Origin: Eledone cirrhosa
Taxonomy: Eukaryota
Direction: 5' to 3'
Length of the DNA: 64,000 nucleotides
Assembly: GCA_964016885.1 (NCBI GenBank)
Contig: OZ024743.1
Location: forward strand, 192,820,001-192,884,000
A program made the translations under genes and the position numbers. A model generated the notes under the pieces. The model was given only the letters and a program-made list of their open reading frames with translations, did not search any database and had not been told where the DNA came from. Position 1 is the first letter of the stretch; each line of letters opens with the position of its first letter. Positions 30,424-31,377 of this stretch are shown in pieces.

Positions 30424-30496
<73 letters not shown>

Positions 30497-30512
30497 CTGG
30501 CAGCTGGGTATA

Positions 30513-30553
30513 CGGTGCTGATGATAGCTAACAAGCTTGAAACTAGTACATCG
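30513..30553 (+). ncRNA. Minimal type I hammerhead
   Basis: cggtg-CTGATGA-t agct aaca agct t-GAAA-ctag-ta-catcg. Confidence 0.85.
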
Positions 30554-30720
30554 TTCCTGTGTCAGTGTTGAACAAAAAGGTGACGTGGTTGCCTTAACAC
30601 CGTATGGCATAAATTCAGGCTGTTCAGTTTGTTTACAAACGAACAAAGCGGCGTTATAATAAGCGTCCGCTAAACTGATGCGTGCATATATGTATGTGTA
30701 CCTGTATGTATATATGTGTA

Positions 30721-30776
<56 letters not shown>

Positions 30777-31012
30777 TGCTACTGTACGTCTGTATACATA
30801 TATGTATGTACGTATACATACATACTTACATTTAAGTAAGTGCCATACTAAGAGTGAGAAATGAAATTTCGTTTTCATTTTTTTCAACTTATCGTTTTCG
30901 GTATGCCTGACCGATTTAACTCACTCAATATGCAAATTGAGCTGCTCAGCCGTTAATTTTCATAAGGAAAGTATATACTTTCGAACGTTCAACTATCTGG
31001 CAGATAGGTATA

Positions 31013-31053
31013 CGGTGCTGATGATAGCTAACAAGCTTGAAACTAGTACATCG
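31013..31053 (+). ncRNA. Minimal type I hammerhead (identical tandem copy)
   Basis: Same sequence as 30513-30553. Confidence 0.85.
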
Positions 31054-31377
31054 TTCCTGTGTCAGTGTTGAACAAAAAGGTGACGTGGTTGCCTTAACAC
31101 CGTATGGCATAAATTCAGGCTGTTCAGTTTGTTTACAAACGAACAAAGCGGCGTTATAATAAGCGTCCGCTAAACTGATGCGTGCATATATGTATGTGTA
31201 CCTGTATGTATATATGTGTATATATGTATATATATATATATAAATATATATATATGCATGCTACTGTACGTCTGTATACATATATGTATGTACGTATACA
31301 TACATACTTACATTTAAGTAAGTGCCATACTAAGAGTGAGAAATGAAATTTCGTTTTCATTTTTTTCAACTTACATA

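What the first reader, a model, noticed from the sequence alone, without database searches (positions are those of the whole stretch)
30494..31372. Two identical hammerheads exactly 500 nt apart: retrozyme-like circular RNA unit
Seen: HHRs at 30513 and 31013 in a partial tandem non-coding repeat between (TA)n tracts, with palindromic ACTAGT stem III and extra hairpins (gaaagtatatactttc, ctatctggcagatag). Known: metazoan non-LTR retrozymes are tandem type I HHR repeats that release monomers which circularise. Inference: dimeric cleavage would release a 500-nt monomer with an internal TA microsatellite, possibly mobilised by PLE RT. It lies directly after a Hydra-like PLE end.
Basis: partly seen in the sequence, partly recalled or inferred. 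Interest (0 to 1): 0.72.

Follow-up and report, generated by a model that had tools for sequence, protein, structure and literature searches.

The report
Penelope-mobilised hammerhead retrozyme, truncated copy
This is one shortened copy of an abundant protein-free repeat (over 23,000 ribozyme motifs in this animal genome) that carries a predicted self-cutting RNA motif and is likely pasted into TA repeats by the enzyme of a Penelope-type jumping gene: a new member of the known animal 'retrozymes', whose predicted circular RNA is untested.

Summary
Observation largely confirmed. Window 30494-31373 is a 5'-truncated, 1.8-unit copy of a non-coding repeat with two type I hammerhead motifs, cut sites 500 nt apart. 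The 500 is incidental: an internal TA tract varies and family spacings run from about 420 to over 560 nt. The motif occurs 23,622 times genome-wide (control 0), in three subfamilies. Copies carry the Penelope-like (PLE) footprint: (TA)n targets, inverted arms and two fixed 3' ends about 60 nt apart. Two-armed insertions had one short plus one long end in 19 of 19 position-sampled and 17 of 18 score-picked cases, as in Hydra PLEs of this genome (11 of 11). No ORF-linked copy or sequence-matched partner was found; the upstream Hydra end is an unrelated neighbour. 5' ends do not pile up at the cut site, so the template is a circle or an uncut tandem RNA; undecided. Verdict: new member of the known non-LTR retrozymes, likely PLE-mobilised. 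This scan reported the same pattern before on other DNA of this genome.

The parts
30494..31373 (+). Whole insertion: 5'-truncated, 1.8 tandem units of the retrozyme (subfamily A), ending at the long (tail-bearing) 3' end
30512..30554 (+). Hammerhead 1 (type I): stem I 6 bp, core at 30518, stem II 4 bp closed by a U.U pair, palindromic stem III; predicted cut after 30548
31012..31054 (+). Hammerhead 2, identical to hammerhead 1 over this span; predicted cut after 31048
30549..31048 (+). Predicted 500-nt monomer between the two cut sites (33% GC, 70% paired as a circle in the model); untested
30705..30773 (.). Internal (TA)n tract of unit 1; length varies between units and sets unit size
31205..31255 (.). 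Internal (TA)n tract of unit 2 (18 nt shorter)
30985..31073 (+). Predicted long extension of stem I enclosing hammerhead 2, kept across subfamilies
30967..30982 (.). 16-nt palindrome/hairpin in the spacer
31310..31316 (+). Position of the family's short 3' end (read through in this copy; equivalent site in unit 1 at 30828-30834)
31317..31373 (+). About 57-nt 'tail' with a predicted hairpin, between the two fixed 3' ends
30347..30496 (.). Upstream (TA)n target tract
31375..31448 (.). Downstream (TA)n target tract
29910..30345 (+). Neighbour, not part of the unit: 3' end of a Hydra-like PLE (last 89 aa of a 713-aa ORF family plus an internally shortened pLTR, short 3' end)
55835..56170 (+). Second, single-motif copy of the same family (subfamily B), ending at the short 3' end

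Best explanation
The element is a 5'-truncated, 1.8-unit copy of an abundant non-coding tandem repeat with a type I hammerhead motif in each unit (a non-LTR retrozyme), likely copied into (TA)n by target-primed reverse transcription by a Penelope-like enzyme, probably of the Hydra clade, acting in trans. Shown: family size, tandem and inverted-arm architecture, two fixed 3' ends about 60 nt apart, one of each in two-armed insertions, no ORF. Inferred: the enzyme nicks AT-rich DNA and starts reverse transcription at two internal RNA sites flanking the tail hairpin, one start per DNA end; the RNA template is continuous across the ribozyme cut site. Inferred by analogy only: tandem transcripts would self-cleave as a dimeric hammerhead (stem III is too short for a monomer) and be ligated into circles of about 420-560 nt (about 0.55); whether the circle or the uncut tandem RNA is the copied template is about even.
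For: 23,622 exact motif matches, control 0. Top 40 of 694 candidates 95-100% identical; three subfamilies 10-17% apart. Stem I G.U to U.G double change between subfamilies, 4 double-sided changes among 12 differing predicted pairs; motif less variable than the rest (0.6% vs 2.0% in A; 1.7% vs 3.4% in B; biased by how loci were picked). Two fixed 3' ends into (TA)n. Two-armed insertions short+long: 21 of 21 script calls in the position-ordered sample, 19 after dropping one false pair (L154) and one duplicate (L164); 17 of 18 in score-picked loci (L050 long/long). Same rule in Hydra-like PLEs here: 9 of 9 and 2 of 2. Frangieh 2024 (PMC11167929): the tail lies between two RT start sites and is unique to PLEs. 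One composite insertion, L133: retrozyme arm with short end joined without (TA)n to a near-full Hydra ORF with long end. One insertion inside a Hydra ORF with a 9-bp target duplication (L157). 5' ends at the cut site 37 (+78 with TA microhomology) versus 18 and 133 at control positions: no pile-up.
Against: No autonomous family sharing sequence with the unit among 3 Hydra-like families tested (54 loci); a stem II-variant pattern gave only 12 hits, 11 of them resembling mutated family copies. The composite is 1 of 30 loci and has a 54-nt filler, so it could be a fusion by deletion. The motif has U.U instead of G-C at 10.1-11.1 and no Rfam gathering hit; Li 2026 saw no cleavage in 8 of 9 predicted dimers and PLE hammerhead mutants still insert in vitro. 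43 of 60 sampled insertions have only one same-strand motif. Target duplication found in only 1 of 16 single-arm insertions examined. 3 of 12 differing pairs are broken.
Confidence: 0.85

Rival explanations
1. Copies are made from uncut tandem transcripts only; the hammerhead is a nearly inactive or protein-assisted pLTR relic and no circle plays a part (a plain non-autonomous PLE, like the non-autonomous Chlamys elements). This differs from the best explanation only in the RNA steps.
For: [quoted passage not shown]
Against: Motif conserved with covariation over 10-17% divergence; retrozymes with the same weak stem III or U.U pair make circles in axolotl (PMC7229834); homogeneous arrays and multi-unit arms on both sides (L018 six spacings of 472; L022 463 on both arms; L173 6 units share 4 changes absent from the other sampled loci).
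Confidence: 0.4
2. The unit is simply the pseudo-LTR of an autonomous PLE, and this locus is a truncated partial tandem of it.
For: Architecture is identical to PLE insertions; Li 2026 finds many retrozymes homologous to pLTRs; only about 120 loci of many thousands were inspected, so a rare parent could be missed.
Against: In 134 blocks the tail runs straight into the next unit with no ORF, whereas in the Hydra family the tail is followed by the ORF start within about 42 nt; no PLE ORF lies directly upstream in sense in the mapped loci; arrays of up to 7 same-strand motifs.
Confidence: 0.07
3. A satellite or DNA-level element (unequal crossover, rolling-circle DNA transposon) with an incidental hammerhead-like motif.
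For: Tandem arrays can grow by DNA recombination (Li 2026 discussion); the A>G excess that RNA editing would leave is not significant.
Against: Dispersed copies with variable 5' ends, fixed paired 3' ends and head-to-head arms matching local PLEs; full core with covarying stems.
Confidence: 0.04

Closest known systems
Metazoan non-LTR retrozymes (Cervera and de la Pena 2020, PMC7229834, parts 2-4 of 6 read; Li, Clavereau and Pollet 2026, 10.64898/2026.07.22.740005, parts 1-3 of 5 read)
   Same: Tandem non-coding units, one type I hammerhead each, low GC, thousands of copies, highly self-paired predicted RNA; palindromic weak stem III as in axolotl HHR_Amex1 and U.U at the base of stem II as in HHR_Amex2.
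   Different: Unit 420-565 nt (above the 150-450 of the 2020 paper, inside the 51-972 of the 2026 one) with a variable internal TA tract; expression, cleavage and circles not shown here; clear PLE insertion footprint, which those texts, as far as read, propose or infer from phylogeny and co-occurrence but do not document.
EN+ Penelope-like elements, Hydra clade (Craig et al. 2021, PMC8557442, section 11 and passages read; Frangieh et al. 2024, PMC11167929, parts 1-2 of 4; Arkhipova et al. 2013, PMC3846280, passages)
   Same: (TA)n targets, 5' truncation, partial tandems, inverted 5' arm, tail at one end only, hammerhead in the repeat.
   Different: No RT/GIY-YIG ORF; no sequence match to three local Hydra-like families; tail about 57-63 nt rather than 30-40.
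Non-autonomous Chlamys elements such as MRC1 (PMC8557442, passage read)
   Same: Non-autonomous, pLTR-forming, multicopy head-to-tail insertions.
   Different: Those generally resemble an autonomous family at the 3' end and mostly lack canonical hammerheads; here the reverse.

Membership tests
Non-LTR retrozyme | Type I hammerhead motif in each unit | tested here: met
   Core, 6-bp stem I, 4-bp stem II, palindromic stem III, matching the canonical metazoan layout in PMC4209133 (passages); U.U replaces G10.1-C11.1; covariation; no Rfam gathering hit
Non-LTR retrozyme | Short tandem repeats with at least two consecutive motif-bearing units | tested here: met
   This locus; 17 of 60 sampled insertions have 2-7 same-strand motifs
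Non-LTR retrozyme | No protein coding; GC below 50% | tested here: met
   No PLE-like or other recognisable ORF in the unit; GC 33%
Non-LTR retrozyme | Target-site duplication longer than 4 bp when present | tested here: inconclusive
   One 9-bp case among 16 single-arm insertions examined; most sit in (TA)n
Non-LTR retrozyme | Self-cleavage of the RNA | not testable with these tools
   Needs in vitro transcription of dimers
Non-LTR retrozyme | Expressed as linear and circular monomers | not testable with these tools
   Needs northern or RNase R data; a circle junction equals the genomic tandem junction
Autonomous EN+ PLE (membership of the unit) | RT plus GIY-YIG ORF between pLTRs | tested here: not met
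   134 blocks without ORF; none directly upstream in mapped loci
PLE-type mobilisation (works like) | Two fixed 3' ends separated by a tail, tail at one end of inverted insertions | tested here: met
   19 of 19 and 17 of 18 two-armed insertions; 11 of 11 in local Hydra-like PLEs
PLE-type mobilisation (works like) | 5' truncation, inverted 5' arms, (TA)n targets | tested here: met
PLE-derived non-autonomous element | Sequence homology to the pLTR of an autonomous family | tested here: inconclusive
   None in 3 Hydra-like families, 54 loci; other PLE families of this genome not surveyed
Hydra clade (the upstream neighbour) | RWK-type and DKT motifs, CxCX5C linker, CxxC and CxH around the EN end, no CCHH | tested here: met
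   Read by eye from the 713-aa ORF against section 11 of PMC8557442; no tree built; no Pfam hit

The most novel reading that the evidence does not exclude
A small self-cleaved, circularised RNA is the true template: a dimeric Hydra-type reverse transcriptase primes from both ends of a (TA)n break at two fixed sites on the circle, one site per end, and rolls round it to write two opposed tandem arms; occasional mixed insertions (retrozyme arm plus Hydra arm, L133) record the helper enzyme directly. That would be genomic evidence for the proposed but unshown rolling-circle retrotransposition of animal retrozymes.
Probability: 0.33. Interest if true: 0.7.

Novelty: new member of a known kind. Interest (0 to 1): 0.4.

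Why it matters
Animal retrozymes are known, and PLEs are their proposed helper, but the papers read rest this on shared motifs, co-occurrence and phylogeny. Here a young, high-copy family shows the PLE-specific tail footprint, with a near-strict one-short, one-long rule shared with intact Hydra-like elements in the same genome. That gives exact predicted RT start sites and candidate intact enzymes for an in vitro test of trans-mobilisation and of circle versus linear template. The locus itself is an ordinary truncated copy.

Tried and rejected
No RNA holder listed by the sequencing-run search; laying four runs of unknown kind gave contigs only and no information on ends or expression. Rfam: nothing at gathering score; miRNA-like hits are TA-tract artefacts. 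Partner search: three Hydra-like families show no pLTR homology; stem II-variant pattern found no second family; an ATG 38 nt after the tail leads to a stop after 7 codons, so an internal-deletion origin is unsupported. Apparent retrozyme-PLE junction in L157 proved to be an insertion inside a PLE ORF; L048 junction is ambiguous. Most retrozyme-PLE adjacencies are nested in (TA)n. Pile-up of 5' ends at the cut site: absent (controls differ in microhomology and in how many mismatching letters they demand, so only a large excess is excluded). RNA-editing scars: A>G 15 vs T>C 9 and 20 vs 13, p about 0.12 each, inconclusive. Array homogeneity does not separate circle from tandem template. Inverted flank duplication seen once (L015), not general. 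Literature searches for hammerhead ribozyme + octopus and retrozyme + cephalopod listed no description of this family; the host group is a guess from recall and earlier notes, not tested; supplements of the papers were not read (bioRxiv ones closed) and repeat databases were not searchable, so the family may be catalogued.

Full report
Observation. The window (G000:C4:192820001-192884000, a 3.0-Gb genome) holds at 30494-31373 a 1.8-unit tandem between (TA)n tracts. Hammerhead cores begin at 30518 and 31018; the predicted GUA cut sites, after 30548 and 31048, are 500 nt apart. The overlap of the two units differs by three substitutions and an 18-nt indel in the internal TA tract. Constrained folding gives a type I motif: stem I 6 bp with a bulge and a long extension, stem II 4 bp closed by U.U, and a palindromic 1-2 bp stem III. 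This is the canonical metazoan layout that is expected to work as a dimer (PMC4209133, passages); the palindromic weak stem III and the U.U pair each occur in axolotl retrozymes (PMC7229834, parts 2-4 of 6). Rfam finds nothing at gathering score and only weak HH9 matches. The unit folds more stably than shuffles even without the TA tract (z -5.2, 40 shuffles).

Family. A 326-nt query gave 694 candidates, of which the 40 scored were 95-100% identical. A 33-nt motif pattern matched 23,622 times, control 0. 134 TA-free blocks fall into three main subfamilies, 10-17% apart, 3-6% within; a second copy lies at window 55835-56170. Motif spacing is 463-565 nt in most subfamily A arrays and about 420-435 in B, so 500 is an accident of TA length. 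Between subfamilies, 12 predicted pairs differ: 4 double-sided (including G.U to U.G in stem I), 5 one-sided or with the pair kept, 3 broken, by the script's labels 5 'comp', 4 'oneSide', 3 'break', one 'comp' having a mismatch in subfamily C. The motif varies less than the rest (0.6% vs 2.0%; 1.7% vs 3.4%), with the caveat that loci were picked partly on an intact motif. In 55 loci taken from the first 100 matches along C1, 60 insertions held 1-9 motifs; 17 of 60 had two or more on one strand.

Insertion footprint. 3' ends fall at two fixed sites, equivalent to window 31310-31316 and 31373, followed by (TA)n; 5' ends vary. Two-armed head-to-head insertions had one short and one long end in 21 of 21 script calls in the position-ordered sample; I dropped L154 (false pair, 460 nt of unrelated DNA between) and one of two duplicated L164 copies, leaving 19 of 19. 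In score-picked loci it was 17 of 18 (L050 long/long; not all checked by eye). Single ends split about evenly (14 long, 4 doubtful long, 14 short), so the pairing is not forced by frequency. Two Hydra-like PLE families of this genome obey the same rule, 9 of 9 and 2 of 2. The tail at one end of inverted PLE insertions is described (PMC8557442 and PMC3846280, passages), and Frangieh 2024 maps it to two internal RT start sites, unique to PLEs (PMC11167929, parts 1-2 of 4). One insertion inside a Hydra ORF has a 9-bp target duplication (1 of 16 examined).

The neighbour and the helper. The upstream end belongs to an abundant family with intact 713-aa ORFs carrying the Hydra motifs. Its pLTR shares nothing with the unit, nor do those of two other Hydra-like families (54 loci in all). 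Adjacent PLE pieces in other loci are almost all separated by (TA)n. One composite (L133) joins a short-ended retrozyme arm to a long-ended Hydra arm without (TA)n; it is 1 of 30 loci and only suggestive. No block shows an ORF after the tail, so the pLTR-only reading is unlikely, though a rare parent cannot be excluded from about 120 loci.

Template. If cut linear monomers were copied, 5' ends would pile up at the cut site. They do not: 37 matches, plus 78 with TA microhomology, against 18 and 133 at neighbouring control positions, out of about 23,600. The template is therefore continuous across the site: a circle or an uncut tandem RNA. Homogeneous arrays and multi-unit arms on both sides (L018, L022, L135, L173) fit rolling round a circle; heterogeneous arrays, 47 of 82 units with nearest relative in their own locus, and the in vitro finding that uncut RNA is the main PLE substrate fit the alternative. 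A>G bias is not significant. Li 2026 found cleavage in only 1 of 9 dimers (parts 1-3 of 5 read). Expression could not be examined.

Comparison and verdict. By sequence features the element is a non-LTR retrozyme; cleavage and circles, which are also defining, are untested. It works like a non-autonomous PLE and is not an autonomous one. Four paper searches listed no description of this family, but supplements and repeat databases were not seen. Earlier notes of this scan report the same two-armed pattern for 422-, 472- and 483-nt units (probably this family; not checked by sequence, one search found no look-alike) and for 310- and 467-nt units in this genome; I read them after reaching my result; they prompted the editing test and one paper (PMC4209133), and are not independent support. 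Novelty: new member of a known kind. Interest 0.4: the locus is ordinary, but the family makes the proposed PLE-retrozyme partnership and the circle-template question directly testable.

Noticed in passing
window 30150-30345; L114: The upstream Hydra-like end lacks about 800 nt of the pLTR, starting exactly at a GT donor-like site kept in the other 29 loci that show this region: it looks like a copy made from spliced RNA; acceptor not checked.
   Followed up: partly
window 30285-30320 and L091-L120: The 713-aa Hydra-like family has a family-wide hammerhead-like stretch with A in place of U4 and no canonical stem III; its activity is doubtful.
   Followed up: no
L133:2600-4001 (G000:C2, about 109.19 Mb): Composite insertion: inverted retrozyme arm with short end joined through a 54-nt filler to a near-full Hydra ORF with long end; 19 nt of the filler match unrelated sequence in L034.
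   Followed up: partly
L015:707-2200: Both arms of a two-armed insertion are followed by the same roughly 190-bp flank in inverted orientation; single case.
   Followed up: partly
window 387-1607: Another Hydra-like PLE 3' end; its family hammerhead also has U.U at the base of stem II and a palindromic stem III, and two 3' ends about 65 nt apart.
   Followed up: partly
window 3486-6623 (minus strand): 1045-aa open frame that looks like a LINE APE+RT protein (by eye; not searched).
   Followed up: no
window 45790-53893: 8-kb array of a 49-52-nt unit built from CAC/CAA triplets, open in several frames.
   Followed up: no
window 12042, 40129, 40993, 62612, 62958, 63082: Further hammerhead-core-like matches, probably ends of other PLE families.
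   Followed up: no
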